Below are positions 13,399 to 50,684 of a stretch of DNA of 64,000 bases, piece by piece. Position 1 is the first letter of the stretch. Each line of letters opens with the position of its first letter. The notes below the pieces were generated by a model. It was not told where the DNA came from and did not search any database. It saw nothing but the letters and a program-made list of their open reading frames with translations. The translations under genes were made by a program, and so were the position numbers. This stretch comes from a virus. Its lineage: Duplodnaviria; Caudoviricetes. The stretch covers positions 62,114 through 126,113 of the IMG/VR virus record IMGVR_UViG_3300028833_000083, one strand, 5' to 3'.

Positions 13399-13428
13399 GC
13401 CACCATAGGTGTCAAAGCCTATGGTGGT
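13399..13428 (+). repeat. Conserved-loop hairpin, copy 1 (loop TGTCAAAG)
   Basis: GCCACCATAGG-TGTCAAAG-CCTATGGTGGT, 10 nt after the terL stop. Confidence 0.8.
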
Positions 13429-13516
13429 ATTTAAGGTGGTATAAAACCATAATACAATACGGTTTTGTAGTTTACTACTTTTAGTATTGTAAATAAAAAT
13501 AAAAGGACTAAATGTT

Positions 13517-13684
13517 ATGACTAAGGTTGAATTAAAAGATATTGTTGATGTGTTAGCACAAATGTATGACGACGTAATTGAATTGTACGATGGTGAAACA
13601 ATATATTCATTATCATTAGACGTTGCAATAAAAACACTTAGAGGTGCTGAGATTCGACCATATTATCTAGGCAATATACTGTGA
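13517..13684 (+). CDS. Small hypothetical protein (55 aa)
   Basis: AAGGA RBS; MTKVELKDIV...YYLGNIL; shorter than anything in the ORF track. Confidence 0.45.
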   Translation: MTKVELKDIVDVLAQMYDDVIELYDGETIYSLSLDVAIKTLRGAEIRPYYLGNIL

Positions 13685-13717
13685 TACATTTATTCTTTTT
13701 TAGATATGGAGTAAGTA

Positions 13718-14095
13718 ATGGCATATATATACAAGAATCCCAATCCGCATAAAAGATTAGTTGGAGACTGTGTTATACGTGGCATTTCAATACTTACTGA
13801 TAAATCGTGGCGTAATGTGTATATACAATTATTAGGCCAAGGTTATGAGATGTATGATATGCCATCGTCAAATGAAGTTTGGGGTGCATACTTAAAATCC
13901 ATTGGATATGTTAAGCGTATCATTTCTAACACATGTCCAGACTGTTATACAATAAAAGATTTTTGTCATGATAATCCTCGCGGCAAATATTTGCTGGCCA
14001 CTGGCTCTCACGTGGTGGCGGTAATAGACGGAGATTATTACGACACTTGGGACTCAGGTAATGAGATTCCCATCTACTACTTTTCAAAAGAGTAG
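13718..14095 (+). CDS. Papain-fold (C39-like) cysteine peptidase candidate
   Basis: NPNP...GDCVIR (C18), GSHVVAV (H98), YYDTWD (D109). Confidence 0.6.
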   Translation: MAYIYKNPNPHKRLVGDCVIRGISILTDKSWRNVYIQLLGQGYEMYDMPSSNEVWGAYLKSIGYVKRIISNTCPDCYTIKDFCHDNPRGKYLLATGSHVVAVIDGDYYDTWDSGNEIPIYYFSKE

Positions 14096-14163
14096 TACTG
14101 ATCATGATTTGTTATTGCGCTTAAGCGCTGTAATAAAAATATGATTTAAAGGAGGGTTCGCCT

Positions 14164-14586
14164 ATGAATCCATACGAACAAGCGCCGTATCCTAGATATG
14201 GCAATCCGTATCAATATGTACCACAGCAGGGCTATGTTGTGTCACAACAGCCTATACCGCAACCAGATTCAAATATAATTTGGGTACAAGGTACAAGTGG
14301 TGGTAATGCCTATCCATTACAAAGCGGAAAGAGTGCAGTATTATTTGATACAGAAGCAAAAAGATTTTTTATTAAAACTGTAGATGCAAGTGGAATGCCA
14401 CAAGCACTACGCGTGTTTTACTACACAGAAGAGACAGAAACGAATGAAAAAGAAACTCCAGCCATTGATACCTCTATGTTTATTACAAGAGAGGAATTTA
14501 CCGAAGCAATTAATTCTTTGAAAGATAGACAATATAACAACAATCAGAGAAAGGACGGTAATAAGAATGGCAAATCCACTGTTTAA
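14164..14586 (+). CDS. Hypothetical protein (Cys-rich operon gene 2)
   Basis: Q/P/Y-rich N-terminus; WVQG...FFIKTVDASGMP core; RBS AAGGAGG. Confidence 0.7.
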   Translation: MNPYEQAPYPRYGNPYQYVPQQGYVVSQQPIPQPDSNIIWVQGTSGGNAYPLQSGKSAVLFDTEAKRFFIKTVDASGMPQALRVFYYTEETETNEKETPAIDTSMFITREEFTEAINSLKDRQYNNNQRKDGNKNGKSTV

Positions 14587-14797
14587 TGAGCAAATGCAGA
14601 ACAGTCTTAACGCACAGTTTAATTCTTTTAGGACAAATCCTATAGGGTTTCTCGCACAGAGAAATATTAATATCCCTCAGGAATATGCCAATGATCCGCA
14701 TGGTGCAATTCAATACATGCTGAACAATAATAAGTTGTCGCAAGACAGATTAAACTGGGCTATACAAATTGCTCAACGAATGGGAATCCGACTTTGA
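14567..14797 (+). CDS. Small helical protein (operon gene 3)
   Basis: MANPLFN...; overlaps the previous gene. Confidence 0.65.
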   Translation: MANPLFNEQMQNSLNAQFNSFRTNPIGFLAQRNINIPQEYANDPHGAIQYMLNNNKLSQDRLNWAIQIAQRMGIRL

Positions 14798-14903
14798 TAT
14801 CTAATCACGCGCGCGCAAAGATGTGATTTGATATAGATAACCGACACTTCAAATGGAAGTGCCGCTCACCTAACAAAAGTTATTGGATGAAAGGAGTTTA
14901 ATT

Positions 14904-15626
14904 ATGGCAATTACTGATTCAGATGGAATGGTTATGCCCGTAGCACCCACTGGAGGTTCTGGCTTCGGAGGCTTTGGTGGTGGAGATGGTTGGCTGTTTA
15001 TTCTTTTCCTTATTGCTTTTATGGGCAATGGATGGGGTAACGGCGGATTCGGAGGAAATTCAGATTTTCCTTGGATCATGAATGGTCAGAATAGCGGCTT
15101 CAGAGACGTTATGAACAACGACAACATCAACTCTATCAGAGGAGACGTTGCCGCACTTTCCAGCCAGCTTTATTCCAGTCAGATGGCTGATATGGAGAGA
15201 AGTTTTGCAGCTCAGACCGCAAACACTCAGGGACTGAATGCGATCCAGTCACAGCTTGCTCAGTGCTGCTGCGATAATAGAGCAGCTACTGCCGATGTGA
15301 AATATACCATCGCAAATGAAGCTTGTGCTACTAGAGCTGCTAATGCTGCAAACACTCAGTCTATCCTCGACAAACTTTGCCAGCTCGAACTGGACGGCTA
15401 CAAGAGAGAGAATGACAACTTAAGAAGTCAGCTCAATATGGCTGCTCTTCGCGAATCTCAGACCGCACAAAATGCGTTCATTCAGCAAGGACTCGCTGAC
15501 GAAGTTGATCAGCTCTATAATAGACTTTCCAATTGCCCTGTGCCCAGCACTCCAGTATATGGCAGAACCCCCATATTCACATGCGGTAACGGATGTGGAT
15601 GTAATGGTGGCACCTCTTTAATTTAA
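14904..15626 (+). CDS. Gly-flanked hydrophobic segment + coiled-coil + CCC/Cys-rich protein (operon gene 4)
   Basis: RBS AAGGAG before ATG 14904; GGGDGWLFILFLIAFMGNGWG; QLAQCCCDNR; C-terminal CGNGCGC. Confidence 0.75.
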   Translation: MAITDSDGMVMPVAPTGGSGFGGFGGGDGWLFILFLIAFMGNGWGNGGFGGNSDFPWIMNGQNSGFRDVMNNDNINSIRGDVAALSSQLYSSQMADMERSFAAQTANTQGLNAIQSQLAQCCCDNRAATADVKYTIANEACATRAANAANTQSILDKLCQLELDGYKRENDNLRSQLNMAALRESQTAQNAFIQQGLADEVDQLYNRLSNCPVPSTPVYGRTPIFTCGNGCGCNGGTSLI

Positions 15627-15638
15627 GGAGGTGTAACT

Positions 15639-16115
15639 ATGGCTGAGTTTACGAAGAACGAATATCAGGTCGTTCAGCCCAATCAGCCCGTTACTCTTAA
15701 TACGAGTATCGGCTGCAATAAGGGGTATGTATATCACAGGAATGGTAGTGGTATTGTAACTCTCCGTGGCATTTCTAACAGTCCTTGTGGATTTGCTAGA
15801 TATCAGGTTACCTTTAACGGCAACATAGCAGTTCCCACTGGAGCTACCGTTGGGCCAATAAGTGTAAGCCTTGCACTGGACGGAGAGCCCATTCTCACTA
15901 GTAGGGCAATTGTTACACCCGCAGCAGTAGCTGCAGATCCTCCTACTCAGAATAATTTCTTTAATGTTACGTCAACTGCAATAATTGATGTTCCTAAATG
16001 TTGCTGCATGAATGTTAGCGTTGAGAATACTTCTGAGAGTGCAACACCCGCAACGGTGCCCGCACCCGCAATACTTGTTCAGAATGCCAATCTTACTGTT
16101 ACACGAATTGCTTAA
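15639..16115 (+). CDS. BclA-CTD/C1q-TNF-like beta-sandwich protein candidate (operon gene 5)
   Basis: Alternating beta pattern, ARYQVTFNGNI, CCC motif, C-terminal NANLTVTRIA. Confidence 0.55.
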   Translation: MAEFTKNEYQVVQPNQPVTLNTSIGCNKGYVYHRNGSGIVTLRGISNSPCGFARYQVTFNGNIAVPTGATVGPISVSLALDGEPILTSRAIVTPAAVAADPPTQNNFFNVTSTAIIDVPKCCCMNVSVENTSESATPATVPAPAILVQNANLTVTRIA

Positions 16116-16133
16116 GAGAGGAGGAAAGTTATT

Positions 16134-16448
16134 ATGATGGATGAATTATATGAACTTTGTAAAAATCTCAAGAAAGAGATCAGAAATTTAAACACAAAGA
16201 ATGACATCTCTCCTACTGAGCTTGAACGTGCATACAAAGCCGTAGATATTATCAAGGACATTAAGACCATCGAGGCTATGGAAGGTTATGGCGAAGATGA
16301 TGGTTACAGTGGTCGTAGATATTATTACGATGATGATATGAGGTATTCTCGTAGAAGCATGAATCGTAACGGCTATAGCGGCAACGAAGACAAGGAAGAG
16401 ATGATGCGTGAGCTTGAAGAGCTTAAACGCAAAATTGAAAGCATGTAA
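16134..16448 (+). CDS. Helical protein with a YS(R/G)-rich linker (operon gene 6)
   Basis: RBS GGAGG; charged helices flanking GYSGRRYYYDDDMRYSRR. Confidence 0.7.
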   Translation: MMDELYELCKNLKKEIRNLNTKNDISPTELERAYKAVDIIKDIKTIEAMEGYGEDDGYSGRRYYYDDDMRYSRRSMNRNGYSGNEDKEEMMRELEELKRKIESM

Positions 16449-16472
16449 TAATTAGGTGGGGATCCCGCCTTG

Positions 16473-16502
16473 GTCGTCGTGGGTGTCAAAGCTCACGACG
16501 GC
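16473..16502 (+). repeat. Conserved-loop hairpin, copy 2 (loop TGTCAAAG)
   Basis: GTCGTCGTGGG-TGTCAAAG-CTCACGACGGC with G-U pairs. Confidence 0.8.
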
Positions 16503-16544
16503 GTTTCTTGTAAATAATTTTCTAACTAAGGAGGACTAAATAAT

Positions 16545-17345
16545 ATGGATATAAGTTCATATTTGCTTTCGAGAAAATTTACGAAAGACAGTATTATTGG
16601 ACTCGGAGCGGTTAAAGGTGCTCCTTGTACTATAAAGAGTACTGAACATCGTGATGGAGTAACGTATGTAACGTTTGAGTGGACGACTGAAGATGGTAGC
16701 ACAAAGAGACAAGCAACCATTAATATTATCGACGGTGCTTCTGTACGTGTATGGGAATCTGGTACTCATTATAAATTTGGCGATATTGTTTTGTATGAGT
16801 CTGCATTTTATAAATGTACTTCTGCAAACAGTGATGCTGAGTTCGATGAAAACAATTGGGAAGATGTCGCATCTTTTAGTGGCGACTATGGTGTTGTGGA
16901 TAGATCCAATCTTCTCCCTGAGTTTACTGCTAATGATAGAAAGGTATATTATTCAATTGAGGATAAGACATTCTATCTTTGGAATGGCGAGCGCTGGGTA
17001 GCTCAGATTGTTGGCATTGATAATGCTGAAGATTATAGTACGGATGAAAAAGTAATTGGCTCATGGACAGACGGAAAGACCTTGTTCCAAAAGACAATTA
17101 ACTTTGGTAAGCTTCCCGCCAATGGTGATAAGTCTATTAGTTACGGAGTAAATAACGCATCCATTAAAAAGATATTTGGGTATGCAACCAACGGAACTGA
17201 TACTATAAATATACCTCACCCCGCAACATCATTATCAGAAGTTGTATCTGTTACTACAAATGCATCAGCAAAACTTTTAACGGCAACTACTGGTATGGAT
17301 AGAAGCAATTATTCTGCTTATATAACCATACAATATACAAAGTAA
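16545..17345 (+). CDS. Modular virion protein with a CBM5/12-like module
   Basis: N-terminus paralogous to 17458; WESGTHYKFGDIVLYESAFYKC; C-terminal YSTDEKVIGSWTDGK domain as in 6290. Confidence 0.65.
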   Translation: MDISSYLLSRKFTKDSIIGLGAVKGAPCTIKSTEHRDGVTYVTFEWTTEDGSTKRQATINIIDGASVRVWESGTHYKFGDIVLYESAFYKCTSANSDAEFDENNWEDVASFSGDYGVVDRSNLLPEFTANDRKVYYSIEDKTFYLWNGERWVAQIVGIDNAEDYSTDEKVIGSWTDGKTLFQKTINFGKLPANGDKSISYGVNNASIKKIFGYATNGTDTINIPHPATSLSEVVSVTTNASAKLLTATTGMDRSNYSAYITIQYTK

Positions 17346-17348
17346 ATC

Positions 17349-17380
17349 TTCGCGACTCGGTGTTAAAGCTGAGTCGCGGG
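17349..17380 (+). repeat. Conserved-loop hairpin, copy 3 (loop TGTTAAAG)
   Basis: TTCGCGACTCGG-TGTTAAAG-CTGAGTCGCGGG, 3 nt after a stop. Confidence 0.8.
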
Positions 17381-17457
17381 AAATGTTATCCTTGTTATCT
17401 TTTGATAGTAGGGATAATATTTTCTATGCATAAAAAAAATAGAAAGGAGATCAACAC

Positions 17458-18486
17458 ATGGATATCGTCTCGTATATACTTTCGAGGAAATATACTCAAA
17501 AGACCGTAGAAGGTCTTGGTGCTATTAAGGGTTCGCCGTGTACCGTTGAGTCTATTGTAGATATAACTGGTGGAAAAAGGATAACCCTTGGATGGGAAGG
17601 AACTTCGGGAACAAAGCAGACTCAGAGTTTTGATATCATGGATGGTGTAGATGGTGTATCTATAACATCGGCAGTGATTAATGAGCAAGGGCATCTTATC
17701 ATTCATTATTCAGACGGCACCAGTAGTGATGCGGGCGTAATTGTGCTTGATGCTCCAGTTAAATCTGTAAACGGTAAAACTGGCGATGTAGTTCTTACCA
17801 CATCTGATCTTGCTAATGATAGTGGTTTTACAACACAGACATATGTAGATACTGCGTTGGCGAGCAAGGCTGACACTTCTGATCTTAATGATTATGTCAA
17901 GAAGGAAAACGACAAGTCTCTTATGTCTACCGCCGAACATAATAAATTAGACGGAATAGAAAGTGGTGCGCAAAAAAATGTGCAAAGCGACTGGGATCAG
18001 AATGATAGTAGTAAGGATGATTTCATAAAAAATAAGCCAACTATACCCCCAACAATAATAGTAGATAGTGAATTATCAAGAACCTCTACTAATCCAGTGG
18101 AGAATAAAGTTGTTAAGGCTGCTATTGATACAAAGGCTAACAGTTCCGATTTAGACAATTATGTGCAGAAAGAAACTGGTAAGGGATTATCTACAGAAGA
18201 TTACACAACTGCCGAAAAAACTAAACTCGGCGGAGTTGAGACTGGCGCAGAAGTTAATACAATTGTTAGTGTTACAGTTGATGGTGTTCCAGCTGTACCA
18301 GATGCCAATAGAAATATTAATATAGCAACTGGCGGAGGAAGTGGCGGAACAAGTAACTACAATGCCTTGACTCATAAGCCTCAGGTAAATGGCGTAGAAT
18401 TGATGGGCAATAAGTCGCTTGAAGACTTGGGAATAGAAGGATTAACTACTGAACAATTAAATAGTCTTTTGGCTGCTTTTGATTAA
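17458..18486 (+). CDS. Fibre-like protein
   Basis: VKSVNGKTGDVVL, NVQSDW..D...FIKNKP, GKGLSTEDYT, NYNALTHKPQVNGVEL fibre motifs. Confidence 0.7.
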   Translation: MDIVSYILSRKYTQKTVEGLGAIKGSPCTVESIVDITGGKRITLGWEGTSGTKQTQSFDIMDGVDGVSITSAVINEQGHLIIHYSDGTSSDAGVIVLDAPVKSVNGKTGDVVLTTSDLANDSGFTTQTYVDTALASKADTSDLNDYVKKENDKSLMSTAEHNKLDGIESGAQKNVQSDWDQNDSSKDDFIKNKPTIPPTIIVDSELSRTSTNPVENKVVKAAIDTKANSSDLDNYVQKETGKGLSTEDYTTAEKTKLGGVETGAEVNTIVSVTVDGVPAVPDANRNINIATGGGSGGTSNYNALTHKPQVNGVELMGNKSLEDLGIEGLTTEQLNSLLAAFD

Positions 18487-18497
18487 GGAGATAGATT

Positions 18498-19184
18498 ATG
18501 GGCGTAAAAAATTTTGTCGATTATGATAACGCGCAAGCGATAACTAATAAAATTGCACAGAAAATTAATGCACTTGGCGGTGCTTATATTTTTAAGGGAT
18601 CAATACCTTTTGCAAGTTTACCAGCTACTATCACATCTGATATGGCTGGATATACTTATAATATTACTAACGACTTCACAACTGACGCTCGTTTCGTAGA
18701 GGGTGCTGGTTTTGATTATAAGGCTGGAACTAATGTATCTGTTGCTGACTTATCTACCTATGTCGAGGTTACTCCCGTAGGATCAGAAAGCCCCGCAACT
18801 GAGGGTTGGTATGAGCTGGTTAATAATAAGTATATCCCCAGTACCGATGCTGAAGTAGTATCTGGTAAAACTTATTACGCAAGGACTTCCAGTGTTAAGT
18901 TTGATATTGTCGGAAGTTTCTTTGATATGGATGCAATAAACGATAGGATAGACGGTGCCGAAGGAATGGTTGCTCCTGAGTTTGATCAAACTCAAGCATA
19001 TGCAATTGGCGCAATTGTAACTCATGAAGATGGATTATACAAATTCAAAGCTGCTCACGTTGCAAACACAGCTTGGAATTCTTCTGAAGTTGATGAGACT
19101 GCTATTACCGATCTTATTTCATCCGCTGAACCTGATTCACTTACCAACGAACAAGTTGCGGCACTCATTGCAATTCTCAACTAA
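18498..19184 (+). CDS. Fibre/decoration protein with a CBM5/12-like module
   Basis: YIFKGS..., FDQTQAYAIGAIVTHEDGLYKF; C-terminal LTNEQVAAL. Confidence 0.65.
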   Translation: MGVKNFVDYDNAQAITNKIAQKINALGGAYIFKGSIPFASLPATITSDMAGYTYNITNDFTTDARFVEGAGFDYKAGTNVSVADLSTYVEVTPVGSESPATEGWYELVNNKYIPSTDAEVVSGKTYYARTSSVKFDIVGSFFDMDAINDRIDGAEGMVAPEFDQTQAYAIGAIVTHEDGLYKFKAAHVANTAWNSSEVDETAITDLISSAEPDSLTNEQVAALIAILN

Positions 19185-19194
19185 TGAATAATTG

Positions 19195-19223
19195 TAAGGG
19201 GCTAGGTTAATCTTAGCCCCTTA
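19195..19223 (+). terminator. Terminator-like hairpin
   Basis: TAAGGGGCTAGG-ttaat-CTTAGCCCCTTA after the stop at 19184. Confidence 0.65.
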
Positions 19224-19299
19224 TTAAGAATGGGAATTATTATTAGAGTTATCCGCAGATAGTTGTAATAATAATTTTTATTCTAGAAAGGAGGAAATT

Positions 19300-19473
19300 A
19301 TGGGAGTTATAAAATATGGCGACGTCGAATATAGTGGCGGCGGCGAAGGAGATACTGTAACTTGGACACAGACCCAAGCAACTGGCACTAAGATCGCGGA
19401 GATCACTATTAACGGAGTAACGCAAAATGTATATATTCCTGAATTACCTCAGGCAGAAGGTGAGAGTGTATAA
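19300..19473 (+). CDS. Small fibre-associated protein (57 aa)
   Basis: AAGGAGG RBS; MGVIKYGDVEYSGGG...; TAATG coupling to the next gene; paralog of 8227. Confidence 0.7.
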   Translation: MGVIKYGDVEYSGGGEGDTVTWTQTQATGTKIAEITINGVTQNVYIPELPQAEGESV

Positions 19474-21347
19474 TGGCAAAATGGCAAATAAATAGCGAAA
19501 CACTTGTAGACATAGCTGATGCTGTTCGTGCAAAACGAGGAACTTCTGCTCCTATACAAGTTAGCGATCTAGCAGATGAAATTGCACTTATCAATGGTGA
19601 TGGTTTACTTAGAGATAGACTTATCATTCCCGATAAATATAATACTGGATGTCATGGTCAGTTAAAAAAATTTGATCCAAGTACCGATACAAGTGGTATA
19701 GGTTGGAGAACTGATTTAAACGATGTTATTGGCATTGATTTTAATAAGCCTGCATCGACCCAAAATCTTACCGACAATCAAATTATTATATTTCAGGATT
19801 ATGATTTTACCACTTATAAAAGTTTTTCTTTTATGAATATGAACGCTTACACCACAGATAAAAGTTATTATAAAGATAATCTTACTTTTGTATTTATTAA
19901 TTGTCTATTTATAACGGCATATCAAAATGGTGCAATTCCTCAAGATACAAAAATTAATTTTATATTTTGTAATTGTACCGCCAACAAAATAGGCATTAGT
20001 GGTTTTGTGGATAGGTGTTTACTTGGTAATGTAACATTTTTCCAGTCAATACGTGAGGATTATGTGCCCGATGGAGATCCGCTTAATCCGTCCAGTCCTT
20101 TCGTAATTAAAAATAGTTATATAATGGACGTAGAAGCTCATACGGCTGAAACTGGAGCAGGACATATAGATGGTCTTCAAATTAGTACTGGAGGAGGACA
20201 TGACCAATTAGTATATAATTGTCGTTTTGAATGTTTTGATATGCCTTATGATCATTCCCAAGGAGGCTGGTCATATAGTATGTTTTGGGAAGGCACTGTA
20301 ACAGATAGCACAATTATGTATTGTATTTTTCATGGTGGTGGTTACTATGGTACATCTTTGAAAAAAGCCGACAATCAAATCCTACGTGATAATTTAATTT
20401 CTGGAGAATATCATATGGATGCAAATGGTTCTGAATCTCAATGGAATAGAGCCTGCTATCCCAATGAGAACAACTGGCAAATGAGTGACGGATGGGCGGA
20501 TTATATCAGCACACTTCTCGTATCCTCGGTTTGGGTCGAAGATAACATGATTAAAATCTGTTATTCCAATGATATGCACTCAACAAGAACTATGAGAATA
20601 GTTGATAATAATGGACAAGTAACTACCGTATCAGTTCCTGCTTGCCCTATAAGGGTTACCGCAGAAACAGAAGGTATCACGCAGTGGTCTGATTTACCAT
20701 TTGATCGTGTTGTGGAGATAAGTGCAACTGGTGTCGATAGTATTAATATATATGATGGCAATACTCTTGTAAGAACATTTACAGTAAATACTGCAGGCAG
20801 TATTAGTAACACGGCAGAAAAAAATATTACACAAAATGGAACCTATATAGCAAGTGCTGAAGGTCTTGATGGTTATTCAAAAGTCAATGTTTCAATTGAT
20901 GCACCTACGGGCACTCTTGAAATTGGTCAAAATGGCACATTTGATGTTGCACAATATGCCAGTGCATTAGTTAATGTTACTAGTGGTGGATATTCATATT
21001 TGACCATTCAAGATATCACACCCGCAGAAGATTTAACAGTACTTGAAATAAATATTGATACTACTAAAACTCTTAATGCGTTGCTTGTGTATGATACAAA
21101 TCGTACAACACTTCAAGCATATACATTCAATGATTTTGTAATAATGAGTGCGCCAACTAATAGTAGTAGTCCTTGGCAAGCATGCTGCGGTTCAAGTAGT
21201 TACAATGGAACATATGGGTTTACTATTAATAATATACCAACATGGAGCGTTGATACTACACTTGGAGTAATTAGCCTCGGCCCCAAGAATAAATACTATT
21301 GGAGGGCTGGTAGAACTTACAGAGTGATGCTTATATATTCAGAATAA
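19473..21347 (+). CDS. Fibre/spike with a right-handed beta-helix (polysaccharide lyase-like) domain
   Basis: N-terminal LVDIADAVRAK fibre-anchor motif; stacked F.NC/IKNS/YNC repeats; GHIDGLQ; ITQNGTY repeats. Confidence 0.6.
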   Translation: MAKWQINSETLVDIADAVRAKRGTSAPIQVSDLADEIALINGDGLLRDRLIIPDKYNTGCHGQLKKFDPSTDTSGIGWRTDLNDVIGIDFNKPASTQNLTDNQIIIFQDYDFTTYKSFSFMNMNAYTTDKSYYKDNLTFVFINCLFITAYQNGAIPQDTKINFIFCNCTANKIGISGFVDRCLLGNVTFFQSIREDYVPDGDPLNPSSPFVIKNSYIMDVEAHTAETGAGHIDGLQISTGGGHDQLVYNCRFECFDMPYDHSQGGWSYSMFWEGTVTDSTIMYCIFHGGGYYGTSLKKADNQILRDNLISGEYHMDANGSESQWNRACYPNENNWQMSDGWADYISTLLVSSVWVEDNMIKICYSNDMHSTRTMRIVDNNGQVTTVSVPACPIRVTAETEGITQWSDLPFDRVVEISATGVDSINIYDGNTLVRTFTVNTAGSISNTAEKNITQNGTYIASAEGLDGYSKVNVSIDAPTGTLEIGQNGTFDVAQYASALVNVTSGGYSYLTIQDITPAEDLTVLEINIDTTKTLNALLVYDTNRTTLQAYTFNDFVIMSAPTNSSSPWQACCGSSSYNGTYGFTINNIPTWSVDTTLGVISLGPKNKYYWRAGRTYRVMLIYSE

Positions 21348-21396
21348 TTTTATGCAAGGGGAGAGAGTAAAATTTCTCCTCTTGTTTACGTATAAT

Positions 21397-21441
21397 GAAA
21401 GGAGGGTTGCCCAACATGGCGACAAAAAAGCAGCGGGCAAC
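21397..21441 (+). repeat. Degenerate copy of the portal RBS/start region (26565-26610), opening a 28-codon ORF 21416..21502
   Basis: GAAAGGAGG(G)TTGCC..ATGGCGAC.AAAA..AAGCAGCGGGCAAC is present at both sites. Confidence 0.75.
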
Positions 21442-21582
21442 ACCAGCAGAAACTGTTAACGCGTTAATTCAGAACCTTAGATTCCAACTTACAAATAATT
21501 AAAATTGTGGAGAGAGGCATAGTCCTCTCTCCAGATATTGTCTCCCTCGTCTGGCAGGGAAAAATAATTAAGGAGGGAGAAA

Positions 21583-22893
21583 ATGAATTTTTCAAATTAT
21601 CAAAATCTTCGTGATTTATTTACGGCGATTAAGGTCAAGTTTACGAACAGACCTGAAACGATAGAAATTTCTCAAGCGGATTATAATGCATTAACTCCTG
21701 CACAGAAAACTGACAAGACAAAAGTTTACTATATATATGATGCAGAGAGCGGCGGTAATACGCTTGCTGGATTATCTGATACAAGTATCACTAATCCGTC
21801 AAATAAACAAGTGCTTAGTTATAATAGCACTACATCAAAATGGGAAAATACAGCACCTCCAGCAAGTGGTGGGGTTACAGATGTTGAAGTAAACGGAACA
21901 TCTGTAGTTGATGCACAAGGCGTTGCGAATCTTACAATAACAATGCCAAGTGTTGAAAATCTAAACAATGTAGATGTTACAGATATTACAAATGGTCAGG
22001 TGCTTAAATATAATTCTACCACTCAAAAATGGGAAAACGCCAATGAGAGTGGCGGAGGCGGTGGAAGCTCTACACTTGGAGGACTTGATGATGTTACTAT
22101 TTCGTCTCCTGCAGCTGGTAATATATTGGCTTATGACGGAGAAAAATGGATTAACTATAATGCGTCAAGCAATGGTATGTTTATAGCAGCATATGGTAAA
22201 TCAACCTATGCTGAAATACTTGCAGCCTATAACTCTCATATGATTGTGTACTGTAGAGCAAGTTCTGGTAGCAACCCTGCAAGTGGTGCACAAACAAGAA
22301 TGGCGTTTATGGCATACGTTAATAACGAGACAACGCCAACCGAATTTGAGTTTCAGTATTACAGATCTGTTTCTACGCATAGCGATTCACAGCAGGGCGA
22401 TCAAGTATTCGTATATAAGATAAATAGTACTGGCAACTGGTCAGTCACAACTCGTAACACATTTACCAAAATTAAAGCTGGTACTAATATGACCAGTAGT
22501 TATAGTGATGGTACATTAACATTGAATAGCACTGCAAGTGGAGGAACAACCGTCGTTGCTAATCCCTCAGGAACTGCTAGTGCCGATTTGAATAAATTAC
22601 AAGTTGGTAGCTCTATATATGGAATACCGCAGCCAACAGCTAATCCTTCTGGCACGGCTTCGGCTGATTTAACCAAACTGCAAATAGGAAGCACCATATA
22701 TTCCATATCAGGAGCAACGGCAAATCCTTCTGGTACAGCAACTGATAATTTAACAAAAATTCAAATAGGCAATACTATATATGCAATTCCAAGTGCGAAT
22801 CTTGGAGATGTAGATAATTTTGTTTTAGTAAATGACCTTCCGTCTGATGCGGCAAGCCATCCTAGAACAATGTATTTAATTACAGAGGAATGA
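21583..22893 (+). CDS. Modular fibre-like protein
   Basis: ISQADYNAL motif; three L..L.DV/S..T...L.Y...KW.N modules; three ANPSGTA..L.K.Q.G..IY repeats. Confidence 0.7.
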   Translation: MNFSNYQNLRDLFTAIKVKFTNRPETIEISQADYNALTPAQKTDKTKVYYIYDAESGGNTLAGLSDTSITNPSNKQVLSYNSTTSKWENTAPPASGGVTDVEVNGTSVVDAQGVANLTITMPSVENLNNVDVTDITNGQVLKYNSTTQKWENANESGGGGGSSTLGGLDDVTISSPAAGNILAYDGEKWINYNASSNGMFIAAYGKSTYAEILAAYNSHMIVYCRASSGSNPASGAQTRMAFMAYVNNETTPTEFEFQYYRSVSTHSDSQQGDQVFVYKINSTGNWSVTTRNTFTKIKAGTNMTSSYSDGTLTLNSTASGGTTVVANPSGTASADLNKLQVGSSIYGIPQPTANPSGTASADLTKLQIGSTIYSISGATANPSGTATDNLTKIQIGNTIYAIPSANLGDVDNFVLVNDLPSDAASHPRTMYLITEE

Positions 22894-22903
22894 GAGGTAT
22901 AAT

Positions 22904-26206: not shown

Positions 26207-26226
26207 AATTTTAGGTAGTGTGGTAC

Positions 26227-26328
26227 TGCATGGTGGCGGAATAGGTAGACGCTAGAGATCGATTTCTAGAATCGAGAGGTAGGCACAACGCCAGTGTCTA
26301 TGCAAGGTGCGAATCCTTGCCCATGCAT
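26227..26328 (+). tRNA. Atypical tRNA-like gene, apparent anticodon CUA (amber)
   Basis: TGCATGG/CCATGCA acceptor; Leu-type D-arm; TCGAT-TT[CTA]GA-ATCGA; long variable arm; GCAAGG-TGCGAAT-CCTTGC T-arm; spacing is non-canonical. Confidence 0.55.
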
Positions 26329-26361
26329 TTATAATTTTTAAAAATTAAAGGAGGCACGATT

Positions 26362-36527: not shown

Positions 36528-36545
36528 TCTATTCTGAGATTGTTG

Positions 36546-36580
36546 TAGGGGGCGGTGTAATATCCGCCTCCTATATTTTA
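36546..36580 (+). terminator. Terminator-like hairpin (loop TGTAATAT)
   Basis: TAGGGGGCGG-TGTAATAT-CCGCCTCCTA then TATTTT. Confidence 0.65.
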
Positions 36581-37471: not shown

Positions 37472-37488
37472 GGAGGAAAACGAATAAA

Positions 37489-39298: not shown

Positions 39299-39313
39299 AG
39301 TGAGGTATAAACT

Positions 39314-48300: not shown

Positions 48301-50650
48301 TGAAGACACTGGAGAATACCTTGGTATATTTGATACCATTGAAGAGGCTAATGAGTATGCTGAAAAACTTCATCTTCAGCAAGAAGCTATTTATGATGAT
48401 TATGATAATTTCACGTCTAGCAAATATCAGAAACTTAAAGAAGAAATAGCTCTGCAAGAACAAGCTTCTCAGGCTTATATGGCAGAGGCTAAAGCAATTG
48501 GACTTAGCGCTGAATATGTAAATAAGATTCAGAACGGTAAGATGGATATCGAAACCGTTACTGATGAAAAACTTAAAGAGGCTATTTCCGATTATCAGGA
48601 ATACTATGATAAGGCGACAGACGCTGCTGATGCTGTAGAAGATTTGCGTGGCGAAATTGCTCAGCTTGCACAGACCAAGTTCGATATGATTACTAAGCAG
48701 TTTGAAGAGATGGCTCTTGCTATTGATCACGCCGCTACTCGTATTGGACATATTCAGAGCAAGATGGAGGCAGAAGGTTATTTTGAATCTTCAGCACTTA
48801 TTAAGCAACTTAAGGCTGGCAACGAAGCAAAACTTGAACAGCTCAAAGAAGAGGCGCTTGAACTTGCTGCGTCCATTGATGAGGCCGTAACCAATGGCGA
48901 CATTGAATATGGTTCTGAACAATGGTGGGGTATGTACGATTCGCTTCAGAATGTTAATGATCAAATTGTCGAAATGTCATCTACTATTGCTGATCTTAAT
49001 GACCAGCTTAGACAGATGGAATGGGACAACTTTGATTATATTGCAGATGCTGTACATAGGCTTGTTGACGAGAATGAATTTCTTATTGACGTCCTTCAAG
49101 ATGAAAGCTTACTGTTTGAAAAGAACGCCTATATTGGTGAGGATTTATATGCAAATGGCAACATGAGCGATGCTGCTCTCGCTGTACAAGGTTTACATGT
49201 TAATAGCATGCAAGTACTTGAACAGCAGAACGAAAAGTATGCTAATGAAATCAAAAAGATTAATGCCGAGCTCGCAAATGATCCTAACAATAAGAAACTT
49301 CTTGAACGTAGAAATGATCTTATTGATCAGCAACAAGACATCATCAAAGGAATCACCAGCGAAAAGCAAGCAATTAAAGAGCTTATCAAAGAAGGATACG
49401 AAACATTTCTTGACTATTTACAGAAGTCTATTGACTATCGCAAGAAAGCTCTTGAGGCACAAAAGAATCTTTATGATTATCAGAACACTGTTGAAGATCA
49501 GACAAAGACTATTTCAAGTTATAGAAAGCAGCTGGCTGCACTTGGCGGTGATGATTCCGAAGAGAATCAGGCTCGCTTACAGACACTTGCTGATAATTTA
49601 AATAAGGCCGAGAAAGAACTTCAACAGACAGAATATGAGAGATGGCTGTCTGATCAAGAAGAAATGATGGACAACTTATATGATCAGTTTGATAAGCTGA
49701 TTAGTGATAAGTTAGACCAGACTGACGAGCTTATTAGGCGCGCAGTTGAACAGACTGAAAGTAGCTCAAAGAATATTTCTGATACTATCACTTCAGAATT
49801 TAGCGAGTTCCTCTATGAACTTGACAACACATCGTTTGGTGTGAATATGGATGACCGCATGAGCAACGCTATCAGTGCTGTTAATAGTGTAGAGAATGCT
49901 ATTGGCAACATGGTAGAGGCTGCAAATGTTAATGCTCAAAATGAACTGAGAGCACTTGAGGCACTTGCTCAAACCGTTGCTGATTCCGCAGTACAACGTC
50001 CTTCATATGAATCTCAAGTTCCCGCTTCTACTGGAGGTAATGGTGGCAACGGAGGAAATAATGGTACTAGTCCTAATGGTGGTAATCCCCCTAAAACAAT
50101 TAGCGATCCTAATTATGATAAGAAAAAGAATACTGAAAATTCTAGAAGAATTAGAGAACTTAATGAACAACTTGCAGCATTAAAAATCCAACGTGATAAA
50201 TATAAAAAATTGGCTAATGGCCCTATGGGACATACTTATATTCCCACATTAAATCAATATGAAAATCAAATTCATGAAATTGAAAACACAATTAAAGAAT
50301 TGTCGGGCTTTGCCAAGGGTGGAACCATAGGTAAGGCTATTAAGAAGACTGGAGAGGATGGCATTATACTTGCACGTAGCGGTGAGGAAGTACTTAGCCT
50401 TGAACGTGTAAAACAAATGCAGGAAATCTTTAAGATGATGCAACCTCTTACCAATATGGGAAGCAACTCTATGTTTAGTAGCGGCACTACTGTTAATGGT
50501 ATGAATGTATCATTTGATCTTCCTAATGTAGCAAATTACGAAGACTTCGTAAGACAAGCCAAGAGCGATCCGACCTTTGAAAAATTAGTACAAAGCATGA
50601 CGATAGGGGCATCCCTCGGTAAAAGTAAACTGAGTAAATACTCGATCTAA
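39314..50650 (+). CDS. Tape measure protein (3778 aa) with inserted domains
   Basis: TP901-type core (~44150-45200: DKINKLGNEF, LAGKNRSN), long coiled coils, C-terminal GFAKGG...GEEVL. Confidence 0.9.
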   Translation: MANSKIISASIAVDIKNLQEVTGAVQGLGQELSNMKVDKNLEPRLKNVEKTLAGAVQMISEVTNKIDVLSQASGVNPKTLTDLAALTNSLAETKIAVDALEAKFNNLSNSIKVGDVGVKQITNSITSDITNMTSSINDSLSETASAIKRGGKEIVESYNNLLEWIKTEKIAADDLTNGDAEKAIEIFKIEDVDDVDAKIKKVKQRLQKDLKDFAEATKNFNNAKLNNVDNDDLEKYAEKQAEALDKLKESFTAFYNYADLDHLSGVKVPKAMQNLLDTITVELGGLEGKTFKTFEEIYDFIDVISKNIEGSIVGAIKSVEGAMEEANKAEVLTERKAPKKKADTKKKVVNGKENNDEIRTGVVIKEGTDAELIAELKTVIDNLQKFVNTHPIELDAVINPTWGTTQTTKYLKSIREQLSKKNGNIDEKLAERIYGLQDAFGKDFSDALNRSIEKLKTSLSKEGFTVGKLKIEDSTVSNFKQQLTDAIGEVEVNVLANIQGIGYENKNSDPELLSKADALFDELRNADKYDNELIKELVNLIKENNLNIDFSDAYKDQIKNIVKGLVDGTYMSIPEAIMKNKGHWGETPQGEFTKNRHYINELIDKINNTRSPQKIAEYQQELTRLYARNQEIVAQLMSEVKDEEETQPISEITQQAEKVVVNTSNATININNGTINGSGNIIDNVDHEHETPNDIFGYTKFIGKDDLNQLKIDEKEHIDELKKDKDIAKETRRLEKAINDVKNIDDLLTSFMAEIPYEINYNLTRDKNGKLIYSKNSVITQLDAGSTPVNSTSAYTVGQIHNHPGEMSFDIPSIQDVVYDFIHIEQKIHDIASELQKGVNSDLFNEYKSYISSNGSLLTVDYSDLLKMTPEQRDDEYLTRLSKFLVSSLFNDQVGYTDKLLTKDEETQSMFFPLQLQSSYINEAFGRKTTEGFFDENGKWVSSNFESELSQEIITQLNQLADIIKNELINESITDFDKIRDMFGMLSVETIKGDALKFFQKVAEQAVQRGMIFSASGNTNQTVSNTVKETANNIENTVKEIAEKSEATLVATRDELVKAANQKFAEILAGERAGNLDFDAIDTLVKDLRLAGIDKLSSTKLATTTTTGRIVDAMLKGDYASALEAFRSTTSHSDEAKARALEVQQMSKFFERFQKLYAMQTIQKKGTGSEKSIQMFVDAVRKSGVDFKVDPKYQDNEIGKLINSMLTRGYKTVADAINANKQSNENVDNTQTNINGQSVSIDTTKVTISSPSEVKITGTQRIAEATQKISNATIEITNGKSTTNTVEKDKTNKSENKPVESNNNSNKNIDNKSKKLLDEYNNNVLERGNLSFGDYLYKQGQILSKLQNNNVDVKKSQTNSIKHYQQYVDEINKIINTTTDNILKEQLIQIRTDLIDNVNILNAPVTSDNIKGAQDAIQNVLKNINAFDKISTGLELKAKEINTFLTAISKIDEIIYKGKDKNLSKSAQETILNANKRAAELKDTLMTAQKNNDYSEIDIESIRQELFDLRYNVGEAINQTVVDKLDIKKLVRKLDNLQIDEVKADPTVISRVKQLRKQLQNIVDDDAREMLTEEYNNYFKEVSQLSGTVSKSDRTFFGNFMKEWRHKNYQMMAQFFSFYDIIRYMREAVNVVKQYDTALIEMMKVSDETRFSLERYQQTLFDTADAIGSSALTLEQSTADWMRIGESLTEAAESAKAAQILMNVSEFQDINSATQALVSASQAYAELDKMEIVDKINKLGNEFPIATDQLATALQNSAAALTTQGNSLEEALALVVGGNIITQDALKTGTGIRTIALRIAGTKEAKDELAELGEGVDDFVVRTESKTRKLIMDYTAVASNGFKGVDIYNDNGNLRSTYEIMQDIADIYKEIQLEDRQAGTNRANALVELLAGKNRSNIAASILTNPDTIREAYEAAQNAEGSAMRENEKYLTSVEAHITMFKNAVDELITSLIDSGFINEIIDFGTTLVNLLKEITDAIGGVGTALAGIGIGVAAKMNVITDKDYGLIKSIKTIANQPLGQDALMKLYANTSSPEELMSQIAGKGLTREGAKFLEVNNVTKDIEGLEEAIVDAKGATNALSSAWQTVGFSIAAIVSTVIIAAIANHVKKIKEAQKATREYARSVKEQSDSIKEYAKRIADAKQIIDDERSSTDEVREAKNQLLDIQNELNDSYDIYTNKIKDSNTELKKSIELLKQEAIENARKALGESYGDGGTFTPSSNEKAENAFNNRIQLEDKNKVTNSAVANLIRSLGIDLTITQSSAFLASSDYETLGKDLNQAIQILSSQKYENSEIATQARNVLSDALTEYNKDIEENKDLEYNRGMVSVYDTNREKYNLAVDAYLQANIEPSEENKELAKKLILELWKDIEAAENTAGMYWAKQFFKGYEDAIEEQITDKKFSNEIYEAGSNGDIGEILSAYANYASNGSHNLSAEQIKQYLEGNYEGVDEQEKQYLDDIARIINENNIFIDELIDYLINNGSIKTEDRLKFEDSYNEQKENARKVLGMSEEDFDALNISNDEELTKWKDIIAATNDAKEAVRMYYLATAGFGATLDSSTILKNMQEQYKPAFDALAESYKEIFDDKNNYKGISKITAEKLQGVNAQFEEINKKLKEAGLDIIPQDAINSFLDTLSTEDILDDSFTTKAEEVHAAYNNIATTIVDSLNPALGQASFETVNLMTKQLKQLGVTNAEEVIFTRLGYTIDECSTAMDTYAAAKEAADAIDLDLDKDVSEFTAEEWAAISSDEAIMEYYRHRARLMAENISTVEDVQNLVNLTKALGDTTVGAIALAEAISRLDTINANTEKIDALNEKIQNAGRTGDWRGIAEYQQQIDALKKENADVASSLLEDVKYEAEFASSEWDGNEVTSSTDKGSESKQKFDWIERAIKKIQRAVTNLGKVADATYKTWGERLDAIMGKTEEFHDEIGQFGRGNIDLYNRPVYRKIDENGDEWTETTFSHVEEDEYGRWVLVPRIARDDYGNAYEMSEREAWGHYEDTGEYLGIFDTIEEANEYAEKLHLQQEAIYDDYDNFTSSKYQKLKEEIALQEQASQAYMAEAKAIGLSAEYVNKIQNGKMDIETVTDEKLKEAISDYQEYYDKATDAADAVEDLRGEIAQLAQTKFDMITKQFEEMALAIDHAATRIGHIQSKMEAEGYFESSALIKQLKAGNEAKLEQLKEEALELAASIDEAVTNGDIEYGSEQWWGMYDSLQNVNDQIVEMSSTIADLNDQLRQMEWDNFDYIADAVHRLVDENEFLIDVLQDESLLFEKNAYIGEDLYANGNMSDAALAVQGLHVNSMQVLEQQNEKYANEIKKINAELANDPNNKKLLERRNDLIDQQQDIIKGITSEKQAIKELIKEGYETFLDYLQKSIDYRKKALEAQKNLYDYQNTVEDQTKTISSYRKQLAALGGDDSEENQARLQTLADNLNKAEKELQQTEYERWLSDQEEMMDNLYDQFDKLISDKLDQTDELIRRAVEQTESSSKNISDTITSEFSEFLYELDNTSFGVNMDDRMSNAISAVNSVENAIGNMVEAANVNAQNELRALEALAQTVADSAVQRPSYESQVPASTGGNGGNGGNNGTSPNGGNPPKTISDPNYDKKKNTENSRRIRELNEQLAALKIQRDKYKKLANGPMGHTYIPTLNQYENQIHEIENTIKELSGFAKGGTIGKAIKKTGEDGIILARSGEEVLSLERVKQMQEIFKMMQPLTNMGSNSMFSSGTTVNGMNVSFDLPNVANYEDFVRQAKSDPTFEKLVQSMTIGASLGKSKLSKYSI

Positions 50651-50656
50651 TATTAG

Positions 50657-50684
50657 GTAGGATAGGTGTCACAGCCTATCCTAC
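50657..50684 (+). repeat. Conserved-loop hairpin, copy 4 (loop TGTCACAG)
   Basis: GTAGGATAGG-TGTCACAG-CCTATCCTAC, 6 nt after the tape-measure stop. Confidence 0.8.

What the first reader, a model, noticed from the sequence alone, without database searches (positions are those of the whole stretch)
13399..50684. Recurring RNA hairpin: conserved G-UGUYAMAG-C loop on four unrelated stems
Seen: hairpins at 13399, 16473, 17349 and 50657 have different 10-12-bp stems but loops TGTCAAAG, TGTCAAAG, TGTTAAAG and TGTCACAG, each closed by G-C. All are on the sense strand 3-25 nt after a stop codon, several have G-U pairs, and U tails are weak. Two terminator-like hairpins (4575, 36546) have related TGTAA loops. 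Copies 1-3 mark accessory-cassette boundaries. Inference: a protein-recognised element of the late transcript, such as a boxB-like antitermination site, a signal for the YonO-type RNAP, an RNase processing/stability site, or a cassette recombination mark.
Basis: partly seen in the sequence, partly recalled or inferred. Interest (0 to 1): 0.75.

Follow-up and report, generated by a model that had tools for sequence, protein, structure and literature searches.

The report
Phage gene-end hairpins sharing one loop
A group of large rumen and gut phages ends certain genes with RNA hairpins of fixed size whose stems drift freely while the tip (GUCANA loop on a wobble pair) stays the same; they are most likely leaky transcription stops or RNA-end protectors with a selected cap, and they are not tied to the phage's own RNA polymerase or to the swappable gene cassette.

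Summary
Four sense-strand hairpins (13399-13428, 16473-16502, 17349-17380, 50656-50685) sit 3-24 nt after stop codons. Each folds as 12-13 bp plus a hexaloop (z -4.1 to -5.6). GTGTYAMAGC occurs 5 times against 0.41 expected.

They belong to a family of at least 39 distinct hairpins in related IMG/VR phages. The consensus is UAG, an 11-bp free stem topped by GG, a U.G or C.A closing pair, loop G-U-C-A-N-A, then U-A-UUU.

At two syntenic sites (after the 496-aa gene and after the tape measure), orthologues keep the loop and geometry while 7 of 12 stem pairs change on both sides. Control terminators do the opposite.

The loop is rare in host-family genomes: 1 of 163 terminator-like hairpins, about 0.09 model hits per Mb against 32 per Mb in the phage. 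Rfam has nothing.

The family also occurs in phages without a detectable YonO-like polymerase. It is nearly absent around the same cassette in 80 other phages, so those two readings fail.

Best reading: leaky terminator or 3'-end hairpins with a selected, probably pre-organised GUAAUA-type cap. A loop-reading factor remains possible. The scan has noted analogous loop-conserved phage hairpins with other loops on other DNA, but not this motif.

The parts
13399..13428 (+). Family hairpin 1: 12-bp stem (including basal G.U and apical U.G), hexaloop GUCAAA at 13411-13416. It lies 10 nt after the TAA of the 496-aa gene, has a 5' flank UAG and a tail AUUUAAGG.
   Evidence: dG -25.7, z -5.61; R1 47.8 bits; orthologous site conserved in 7 relatives
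16473..16502 (+). Family hairpin 2: 12-bp stem with G.U pairs, hexaloop GUCAAA, tail GUUUCUUG. It lies 24 nt after the stop of ORF 16134-16448, and a small hairpin (16455-16469) precedes it.
   Evidence: dG -30.5 with the small upstream hairpin, z -5.19; passes the terminator scan; 48.6 bits
17349..17380 (+). Family hairpin 3: 13-bp stem, hexaloop GUUAAA, no U tail (GAAAUG). It is followed directly by a long AT-rich hairpin (17378-17425). It starts 3 nt after the stop of ORF 16545-17345.
   Evidence: z -4.87; 32.1 bits
50656..50685 (+). Family hairpin 4: 12-bp stem, hexaloop GUCACA, 5 nt after the TAA of the 3778-aa tape-measure ORF.
   Evidence: z -4.09; 46.5 bits; orthologues in G001-G004
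36544..36575 (+). Canonical U-run terminator capped by U-GUAAUA-U, a borderline family member. Its orthologues carry GNRA tetraloops (GUAA, GAAA, GCAA).
   Evidence: 24.8 bits, E 0.003
4575..4600 (+). Canonical terminator with a GUAA tetraloop (GGGU-GUAA-AUCC) and a T run. It is not a family member.
21354..21385 (+). Hairpin with a GUAAAA hexaloop closed by A-U, 6 nt after the stop of ORF 19473-21347. The loop type is related, but the hairpin falls below the model threshold.
13459..16442 (+). Accessory six-gene cassette lying between hairpins 1 and 2. It is absent from the 97%-identical relative L003.
   Evidence: the cassette protein is widespread in other rumen phages without family hairpins
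11898..13388 (+). Conserved 496-aa gene (phrog_26582, function unknown). Its 3' end carries a family hairpin in all close relatives.
57098..57107 (-). Chance match to the 10-mer inside an ORF, antisense, with no stem. It is not part of the family.

Best explanation
The four hairpins belong to a lineage-specific family of intercistronic RNA hairpins. The family occurs in large rumen and gut phages, probably of Lachnospiraceae. Each hairpin is transcribed as part of the mRNA just after a stop codon and folds into a 12-bp helix. The helix has a G.U pair at its base and a U.G or C.A wobble at its top, capped by the hexaloop G-U-(C)-A-N-A and followed by A-UUU. I read them as leaky intrinsic terminators and/or 3'-end protecting hairpins. 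In that role they would punctuate long operons, set expression steps (for example after the tape-measure gene) and insulate neighbouring genes. The cap is under purifying selection, probably because it forms a pre-organised GUAAUA-type loop with a sheared G.A between the first and last loop bases. That would make it functionally interchangeable with the GNRA caps of the phage's other terminators. It could give fast folding and nuclease resistance, or offer a docking surface. Shown: existence, strand, gene-end position, covariation, loop and geometry conservation, rarity in host-type genomes, and independence from the phage RNAP and the cassette. Inferred: termination or stabilisation, and the 3D fold of the loop.
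For: Fold and significance.

Family: 39 distinct hairpins with one ungapped 42-nt architecture. All 19 hits in 1 Mb of related loci lie on the coding strand. 36 of 39 are downstream of a same-strand ORF of at least 60 codons, and 15 lie within 10 nt of the stop.

Synteny-defined orthologues: after the 496-aa gene, 91.7% of cells are paired and 7 of 12 pairs change on both sides. After the tape measure, 100% are paired and 7 of 12 change. UCA-A of the loop is invariant at both sites.

Controls: the orthologous ordinary terminators hp63020 and hp36912 keep their stems but vary the loop and its length. hp36545 alternates GNRA tetraloops with GUAAUA.

Tail: U is at 92, 95 and 77% in the three positions after a purine. 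Some members have full U runs, such as G001 with A followed by nine U, and L006 with UUUUUUC. hp2 passes a terminator scan.

The same loop type caps ordinary T-run terminators of housekeeping genes (SDR, pheT, hsp20) in Lachnospiraceae, but rarely.

The family is present with and without a YonO-like RNAP.

The rRNA GUAAUA hexaloop has a sugar-Hoogsteen G.A between its first and last residues and melts as a comparatively stable loop (bioRxiv 10.1101/354332).
Against: Only three U residues are conserved, and an A usually separates them from the stem. hp1, hp3 and hp4 fail a simple terminator scan, and hp3 has no U tail at all.

Stability alone does not explain several features. These are the near-fixed C at loop position 3 (77%), the U.G or C.A closing pair (34 of 39, Watson-Crick in only 2), the invariant basal G.U in all 12 orthologues, the conserved 5' UAG, and the exact 12-bp length. 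These point to something that measures the helix.

A loop of 6-8 nt is not the most stable possible cap.

No transcript ends could be seen, because the only RNA runs are contigs.

Part of the loop invariance in the 39-member set comes from how members were collected: a regex and a model trained on G-U-N-A-N-A.
Confidence: 0.5

Rival explanations
1. The apical module (GG / Y.R wobble / GUCANA) and the conserved base (UA|G.U|A-UUU) are read by a trans-acting factor that measures one helical turn. Candidates are a loop-guided endoribonuclease, an RNA-binding regulator, or a termination or antitermination factor. Given the distribution, the factor would be host-encoded or broadly shared among these phages. 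The hairpin would then be a processing or regulatory site rather than a plain terminator.
For: The geometry is exact in 39 members and in all 12 synteny-defined orthologues. Wobble pairs are conserved at both ends. U.G and C.A alternate as isosteric pairs (24 and 10 of 39), with Watson-Crick in only 2. Loop positions U2, A4 and A6 are at 100%. UAG is conserved at the base, yet is in frame with the upstream ORF in only 9 of 23 cases, so it is not a stop codon. The U tracts are weak. The frequency is about 370-fold higher than in host-family genomes.
Against: No candidate protein was identified. The family occurs in phages of very different size and gene content (39 to 216 kb). Similar loops cap ordinary chromosomal terminators. 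At an orthologous terminator, GUAAUA and GNRA caps alternate, as expected for a structural cap.
Confidence: 0.25
2. tRNA-minihelix mimic. The 12-bp helix copies the acceptor/T-arm stack, G is position +1, the purine after the stem is the discriminator, and UUU is a CCA-less trailer. RNase P and/or RNase Z would then cut the polycistronic transcript here, giving tRNA-punctuation-like processing.
For: The stack is exactly 12 bp. Its top two pairs are G-C/G-Y, as in T stems. The loop contains UCAAA, as in common T loops. G is at +1 (85%). The base after the stem is A or G in 72% of members, followed by U-rich sequence. This rests on resemblance to textbook tRNA features, not on a test.
Against: The loop has 6 or 8 nt, not the 7-nt T loop. 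The position that would be A58 in a T-loop alignment is the variable one. The first pair is G.U rather than G-C. The Rfam scans found no tRNA or any other family here.
Confidence: 0.07
3. Recombination mark. Like PeSLs of T4-type phages, the hairpins provide short shared sequence at which unrelated accessory genes are swapped.
For: hp1 and hp2 bracket a 2984-bp cassette that is missing in L003. Tandem hairpins occur in L003, L004 and L030. The hairpins cluster in the variable fibre-gene region, and homology between relatives breaks at or near them.
Against: The indel junctions lie about 30 nt outside both hairpins, and both hairpins survive in L003. Only about 12 contiguous nucleotides are shared. 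The same cassette in 80 other phage loci is almost never flanked by family hairpins. The two best-conserved sites, after the 496-aa gene and after the tape measure, are in the conserved backbone. No promoter half like that of PeSLs was found.
Confidence: 0.06
4. Signal specific to the YonO-like phage RNA polymerase: its terminator, pause site or hairpin promoter.
For: In the window genome all four copies lie in the co-oriented arm downstream of the RNAP gene. The close relatives G001-G003, and G109 and G113, have the RNAP. The YonO promoter and terminator rules are unknown (PMC5467207). Phages with their own RNAPs can have motif-bearing terminators (PMC11512511).
Against: G108 (3 regex copies; 4 model hits), G114 (6 regex copies; 4 model hits) and G112 (1 copy) have family hairpins but no detectable homologue of the RNAP. 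In G109 copies lie on the strand opposite to the RNAP gene, after same-strand ORFs. There is no copy at the head of the late arm.
Confidence: 0.05
5. DNA-level element: an antisense promoter (the reverse complement of the loop is CTTTGACA, containing TTGACA), a primase site (GTGTC), or a single-strand initiation hairpin.
For: The loop complement contains a perfect -35 hexamer. GTGTC is a T7 primase site (from memory).
Against: There is no -10 at the right spacing, because the stems vary. The G of TTGACA is the variable position. Many members lack GTC, carrying CCUCAAAA or AAUCAAAU instead. Orientation always follows the coding strand, and the position is always just after a stop codon.
Confidence: 0.03

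Closest known systems
Rho-independent (intrinsic) terminators of Firmicutes, including NusA-stimulated weak ones
   Same: A sense-strand G+C-containing hairpin a few nucleotides after a stop codon, followed by U-rich sequence. Some family members have full U runs. The same loop type occasionally caps ordinary Lachnospiraceae terminators.
   Different: Ordinary terminators do not share a loop, a fixed 12-bp length, wobble pairs at both ends or a 5' UAG. In most copies only three U residues are conserved, after a purine.
Motif-bearing terminators of phages with their own RNAPs (phiKZ, 201phi2-1; PMC11512511)
   Same: Phage-wide terminators that share a sequence motif and form a stem-loop.
   Different: Those motifs were mapped by 3'-end sequencing and belong to jumbo Pseudomonas phages with multisubunit RNAPs. 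Here no ends are mapped, the conserved part is the loop rather than the stem, and the family is not tied to the phage RNAP.
PeSLs (promoter-early stem-loops) of T4-type phages (PMC2839356, PMC4122927)
   Same: Repeated intergenic stem-loops in hyperplastic regions, next to indels of accessory genes.
   Different: PeSLs are composite promoter-plus-terminator sequences long enough for homologous exchange. Here there is no promoter half, only about 12 nt are shared, and the junctions fall outside the hairpins.
RNase III intercistronic processing hairpins of T7 and SP82, and loop-guided Rnt1p sites (AGNN tetraloop) [from general knowledge]
   Same: Hairpins between cistrons of a long phage transcript. 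For Rnt1p, a conserved loop on variable stems acts as a ruler for cleavage.
   Different: T7 and SP82 sites are about 20 bp or longer with internal loops. Here the helix is a perfect 12 bp. No cleavage data exist.
lambda/P22 boxB (nut) hairpins [from general knowledge]
   Same: A conserved purine-rich loop beginning with G and closed by a U-containing pair, on the sense transcript. P22 GACAA resembles GUCAAA.
   Different: boxB is a 5-nt loop on a 5-bp stem, occurs once per operon near the promoter with a boxA, and lies upstream of terminators. Here the helix is 12 bp, there are several copies, each lies at a gene end, and each has its own U-rich tail.
GUAAUA hexaloop of ribosomal RNA (Fountain et al., as cited in bioRxiv 10.1101/354332)
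   Same: The pattern G-U-N-A-N-A. The first G and last A could form the sugar-Hoogsteen G.A pair. One window hairpin (36544) carries GUAAUA itself.
   Different: The resemblance is by sequence only. The family prefers C at position 3 and a wobble closing pair, and the fold was not tested.

Membership tests
Intrinsic (Rho-independent) terminator | Stable G+C-containing stem-loop on the transcribed strand | tested here: met
   12-13 bp, dG -19.7 to -30.5 kcal/mol, z -4.1 to -5.6
Intrinsic (Rho-independent) terminator | U tract (about 5 or more U in 8) directly after the stem | tested here: inconclusive
   Only hp2 passes the scan. Family consensus is U(paired)-A-UUU followed by about 40% U. Some relatives have long U runs.
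Intrinsic (Rho-independent) terminator | Position downstream of a stop codon, in sense | tested here: met
   The four window copies start 3-24 nt after stops. 36 of 39 family members follow a same-strand ORF.
Intrinsic (Rho-independent) terminator | RNA 3' ends or loss of read-through at the site | not testable with these tools
   Only Logan contigs of two metatranscriptome runs are available. Contigs bridge hp1 and hp2 but cannot show ends.
lambda-type nut site (boxA + boxB) | 5-nt GNRA-like loop on a short (about 5 bp) stem | tested here: not met
   Hexaloop (or 8-nt loop) on 12 bp
lambda-type nut site (boxA + boxB) | One promoter-proximal copy per operon, upstream of terminators | tested here: not met
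   Four copies at gene ends, 11-51 kb into the arm, and none at its head
PeSL (T4-type promoter-early stem-loop) | Composite of a promoter and a stem-loop terminator | tested here: not met
   No excess of sigma-70-like sites in 4000-22000 (61 found against 68 expected in shuffles) and none of the listed sites lies in the spacers beside the hairpins
PeSL (T4-type promoter-early stem-loop) | Indel or replacement junctions fall within the repeated element | tested here: not met
   The junctions of the 2984-bp indel lie about 30 nt outside hp1 and hp2, and both hairpins are retained
Any Rfam family | Match at the gathering score, or a suggestive sub-threshold match | tested here: not met
   No hit at gathering in the window, L008 or L009. 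Only noise at E up to 10, and none centred on a family hairpin.
tRNA acceptor/T-arm minihelix | 12-bp coaxial stack with G at +1 and a purine discriminator | tested here: met
   12 pairs including the closing wobble; G at +1 in 85%; A or G after the stem in 72%
tRNA acceptor/T-arm minihelix | 7-nt T loop (U54...A58 pair, G53-C61 closure) | tested here: not met
   The loop is 6 or 8 nt, and the position that aligns to A58 is variable
rRNA-type GUAAUA hexaloop | G at position 1 and A at position 6 (sheared pair), U at position 2 | tested here: met
   G 92%, U 100%, A6 100%, A4 100% in 39 distinct members. This is sequence only.
rRNA-type GUAAUA hexaloop | The three-dimensional fold itself | not testable with these tools
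   Needs NMR, crystallography or chemical probing
T7/SP82-type RNase III site | Helix of about 20 bp or more with an internal loop at the cleavage site | tested here: not met
   Perfect 12-13 bp helix with no internal loop

The most novel reading that the evidence does not exclude
The hairpin is a ruler-type processing signal. A nuclease or RNA-binding factor would read the GUCANA cap on its wobble pair and act exactly one helical turn away, at the conserved UA|G.U|A-UUU base. The late and other polycistronic transcripts of these phages would then be cut into defined units, as tRNAs punctuate mitochondrial transcripts or as Rnt1p uses AGNN loops. That would be an undescribed RNA-processing code in phages of gut Firmicutes.
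Probability: 0.12. Interest if true: 0.8.

Novelty: new variant of a known kind. Interest (0 to 1): 0.5.

Why it matters
Gene-end hairpins are usually treated as interchangeable. Here a whole phage lineage holds the cap, the length and both terminal wobble pairs constant while the stem sequence turns over. This means that something beyond 'a stable stem plus U's' is being selected.

If the cap only tunes folding or nuclease resistance, it gives a portable, compact terminator or stabiliser design for Clostridia-type hosts. It would also help in annotating transcription units in uncultured rumen and gut phages.

If a factor reads the cap, it would be a new regulatory or processing layer for long phage operons. 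The covariance model built here would then locate its sites.

The result also removes two attractive but wrong links: to the YonO-like RNA polymerase and to cassette exchange.

Tried and rejected
- **Metatranscriptome evidence.** Two sheep-gut RNA runs hold the region only as low-depth Logan contigs. Contigs bridge hp1 and hp2, but no starts, ends or strand information are available, and the material may be DNA carry-over. This gives no evidence either way.
- **Megablast against the phage collection.** A search with window 13000-18000 gave no match. A protein search for relatives of ORF 50705-51031 in IMG/VR found none.
- **Rfam.** Nothing at gathering, and only noise at E up to 10.
- **Antisense promoter.** The loop complement contains TTGACA, but there is no -10 and the G is the variable base.
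- **T7-type primase site GTGTC and TGT 'UGU' recognition.** Many members lack these letters.
- **In-frame back-up stop.** The conserved UAG is in frame in only 9 of 23 cases.
- **attC-like or MITE-like reading of the TA...TA flanks.** The stems are unrelated between copies, and no inverted R boxes are present.
- **Phylogenetic profiling for a co-occurring protein.** Abandoned after a regex scan showed that nearly every genome fetched carries at least one copy, including G107, which the model search had missed. Only G110 has none.
- **Control model with a scrambled loop.** Replaced by a direct census of terminator loops in 400 kb of two Lachnospiraceae genomes.
- **A first terminator census script.** It under-called family hairpins because of its strict T-run rule, so I rely on it only for the host-genome frequency.

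Full report
**1. The observation**

The four hairpins are at the stated places. RNAfold gives each one a single dominant structure. hp1 is 13399-13428, hp2 is 16473-16502, hp3 is 17349-17380 and hp4 is 50656-50685. Each has 12-13 pairs and a hexaloop (GUCAAA, GUCAAA, GUUAAA, GUCACA). Z-scores are -4.1 to -5.6, and no shuffle folds as well.

All four are on the + strand. That strand carries essentially every gene of the window. The hairpins begin 10, 24, 3 and 5 nt after stop codons.

GTGTYAMAGC occurs 5 times against 0.41 expected. The fifth copy is antisense, inside an ORF, and has no stem.

The window is the right half of a 126,113-bp phage record with terminal repeats. Its left arm is read on the - strand. 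The whole genome holds only these four copies.

**2. A family, not four coincidences**

The 496-aa gene upstream of hp1 has 106 relatives in IMG/VR, of which the best 80 loci were kept. Scanning those loci, and then five to ten whole related genomes, turned up many more hairpins of the same build on quite different stems.

I built a covariance model (R1).

- It finds the 4 copies in the window's own genome.
- It finds 2-4 copies in each close relative.
- It finds 19 copies in 1 Mb of related loci, all on the coding strand.

The 39 distinct members align without a gap. Their consensus runs as follows:

- U-A-G at 77, 77 and 85%.
- Eight freely varying pairs.
- G-G at the top of the stem.
- A closing pair that is U..G in 24 members and C..A in 10, and Watson-Crick in only 2.
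- The loop G (92%), U (100%), C (77%), A (100%), N, A (100%).
- After the stem, U (74%, paired with the basal G), A (59%), then UUU (92, 95, 77%).

36 of 39 follow a same-strand ORF of at least 60 codons, and 15 lie within 10 nt of its stop. The conserved UAG is in frame with that ORF in only 9 of 23 cases, so it is not a stop codon.

Part of the loop invariance is built into how I collected members. The tests below therefore use hairpins found by synteny alone.

**3. Orthologues and controls**

I fetched G001-G003, which are 76-83% identical to the window in DNA. I located the DNA behind homologous gene ends without reference to the motif.

- Behind the 496-aa gene, seven relatives carry a hairpin of identical geometry. 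Of the stem cells, 91.7% are paired, and 7 of 12 pairs change on both sides. The loops read UGUCAAAG, CGUCAAAA, CCUCAAAA, UGUCACAG, CCCCAAAA and CGUCACAA.
- Behind the tape-measure gene, five relatives do the same. All cells are paired, 7 of 12 pairs change on both sides, and the loops are GUCACA, GUCAAA and AUCAAA.
- The basal G.U pair is invariant in all twelve.

The ordinary terminators of the same genomes behave the other way round.

- hp63020 and hp36912 keep their stems while the loop and its length vary (ccat, ttatat, tagatt; aatcttg, atct).
- hp36545 has GNRA tetraloops (GUAA, GAAA, GCAA) in three genomes and U-GUAAUA-U in the window.

So in this family the cap and the ruler length are under selection, and the stem sequence is not.

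**4. Is it just a common host loop?**

A 55%-identical homologue of the 496-aa gene sits on a contig of a Lachnospiraceae MAG. This is weak host evidence. The sheep-gut origin of the only runs holding the DNA fits a rumen phage.

R1 finds 25 matches at E <= 0.01 in 19 of 101 Lachnospiraceae genomes. That is about 0.09 per Mb, against 32 per Mb in the phage. Those matches are ordinary T-run terminators behind housekeeping genes (an SDR, pheT, hsp20) and mobile genes. Their loops are mostly UGUAAAAG or UGUUAAAG.

In 400 kb from two such genomes, 1 of 163 terminator-like hairpins has an NGUNANAN loop.

The loop is therefore compatible with host-type terminators but rare among them.

**5. What it is not**

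*Not YonO-specific.* The 842-aa ORF at 45-2573 is distantly similar to a gene of Enterocloster phage PMBT24 that the record annotates as 'RNA-dependent RNA polymerase'. It is present in G001-G003, G109 and G113, and more distantly in G107. However, G108, G114 and G112 carry family hairpins without a detectable homologue. In G109, copies lie on the strand opposite to the RNAP gene, behind same-strand ORFs.

*Not a cassette mark.*
- The relative L003 (97% identical) lacks 13459-16442, so hp1 and hp2 are 91 nt apart there. The junctions lie about 30 nt outside the hairpins, and both hairpins survive.
- The cassette's 158-aa protein has 435 relatives in IMG/VR, mostly in 35-70-kb rumen phages. In 80 of those loci (709 kb) R1 finds only 4 weak hits.
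- The hairpins therefore belong to the backbone of this phage lineage.
- Some are also positionally conserved behind the same gene family in distant phages. Examples are phrog_200 in G114 and G109, and phrog_33389 in G108 and G113.

*Not boxB.* Size, copy number and position are all wrong.

*Not in Rfam*.

*Not an antisense promoter,* despite TTGACA in the loop complement.

**6. How it most likely works**

The position just after stops, the sense orientation and the U-rich tail all fit a gene-end RNA hairpin. So do the members with full U runs, and the occasional use of the same cap on host terminators. Such a hairpin would terminate a fraction of transcripts and protect the 3' end of the rest.

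The invariant G1, U2, A4 and A6, with free positions 3 and 5, match the rRNA GUAAUA hexaloop. [quoted passage not shown] GUAAUA and GNRA also alternate at one orthologous terminator. Together these suggest a pre-organised structural cap.

I give this reading 0.5.

What it does not explain:
- the exact 12-bp length;
- wobble pairs at both ends, with U.G and C.A interchanging as isosteric pairs;
- the near-fixed C3;
- the 5' UAG;
- the weak tails of hp1, hp3 and hp4.

These features keep alive a reading in which a factor binds the cap and acts one helical turn away (0.25). Its sharper forms are a tRNA-minihelix mimic for RNase P or RNase Z, or a loop-guided RNase III. Nothing here tests them.

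**7. Comparison and novelty**

The closest known things are:
- intrinsic terminators;
- motif-bearing terminators of phiKZ-like phages (PMC11512511);
- PeSLs (PMC4122927);
- T7 and SP82 RNase III sites;
- boxB.

Each shares some features and fails others (see the membership table). I class the finding as a new variant of a known kind: a loop- and length-constrained gene-end hairpin family, not catalogued.

Earlier notes of this scan describe analogous phage hairpins with other conserved loops (CAGCA, CCGUAA) on other DNA. This may be a general, under-described habit of phages. I did not test those notes.

**8. Limits**

- No transcript ends are available.
- The host is not identified.
- The loop fold is inferred from sequence.
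- Family counts partly depend on a model trained on the motif.
- E-values of the short model are rough.

Noticed in passing
window 10544-11561 (ORF 10606-11583): A 1-kb insertion encoding an HNH/endonuclease-like protein (phrog_4645), preceded by its own terminator-like hairpin at 10550-10585. It is absent from L003-L009, so it is a free-standing homing-endonuclease-type indel just upstream of the 496-aa gene.
   Followed up: partly
L008:7492-7580 and L009:7492-7585 (between the stop of the 496-aa gene homologue and the family hairpin): An extra conserved element of about 95 nt that looks structured (GGCGTGGAGYGAAAAGGCTA ... CCCTTGCCGAGTC). It is present in two relatives and absent from the window. 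No Rfam family matches at gathering.
   Followed up: partly
G002:C1:83363-86224: The RNAP homologue of relative G002 matches in two pieces (residues 1-543 and 541-840) separated by about 330 nt, within one long open frame of 959 aa. This suggests an in-frame insertion (an intein-like or extra domain).
   Followed up: no
window 13459-16442: The six-gene Cys-rich cassette is a widespread module. Its 158-aa protein (phrog_20016) has 435 relatives in IMG/VR, mostly in 35-70-kb rumen phage contigs at 69-98% identity, so it moves between unrelated phage backbones.
   Followed up: partly
window 16455-16469: A small 6-bp hairpin (GGUGGG-GAU-CCCGCC) lies 3 nt upstream of family hairpin 2. It is retained in L003.
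   Followed up: no
window 17378-17425: A long A+U-rich hairpin (about 22 pairs, 6 G.U, UUUU loop) directly abuts family hairpin 3 and overlaps its last bases, so the two structures may compete.
   Followed up: no
G110 (IMGVR provirus, 143 kb): 100860 and 130658: The one related genome without family hairpins has two hairpins capped G-GUAAAA-C. This is the same hexaloop type but closed by a Watson-Crick pair.
   Followed up: no
window 3000-22000 in runs X1 and X2: Contigs of a sheep-gut metatranscriptome include a form that skips 10538-11826 (the endonuclease insertion). A co-occurring strain without the insertion therefore exists in the same sample.
   Followed up: no
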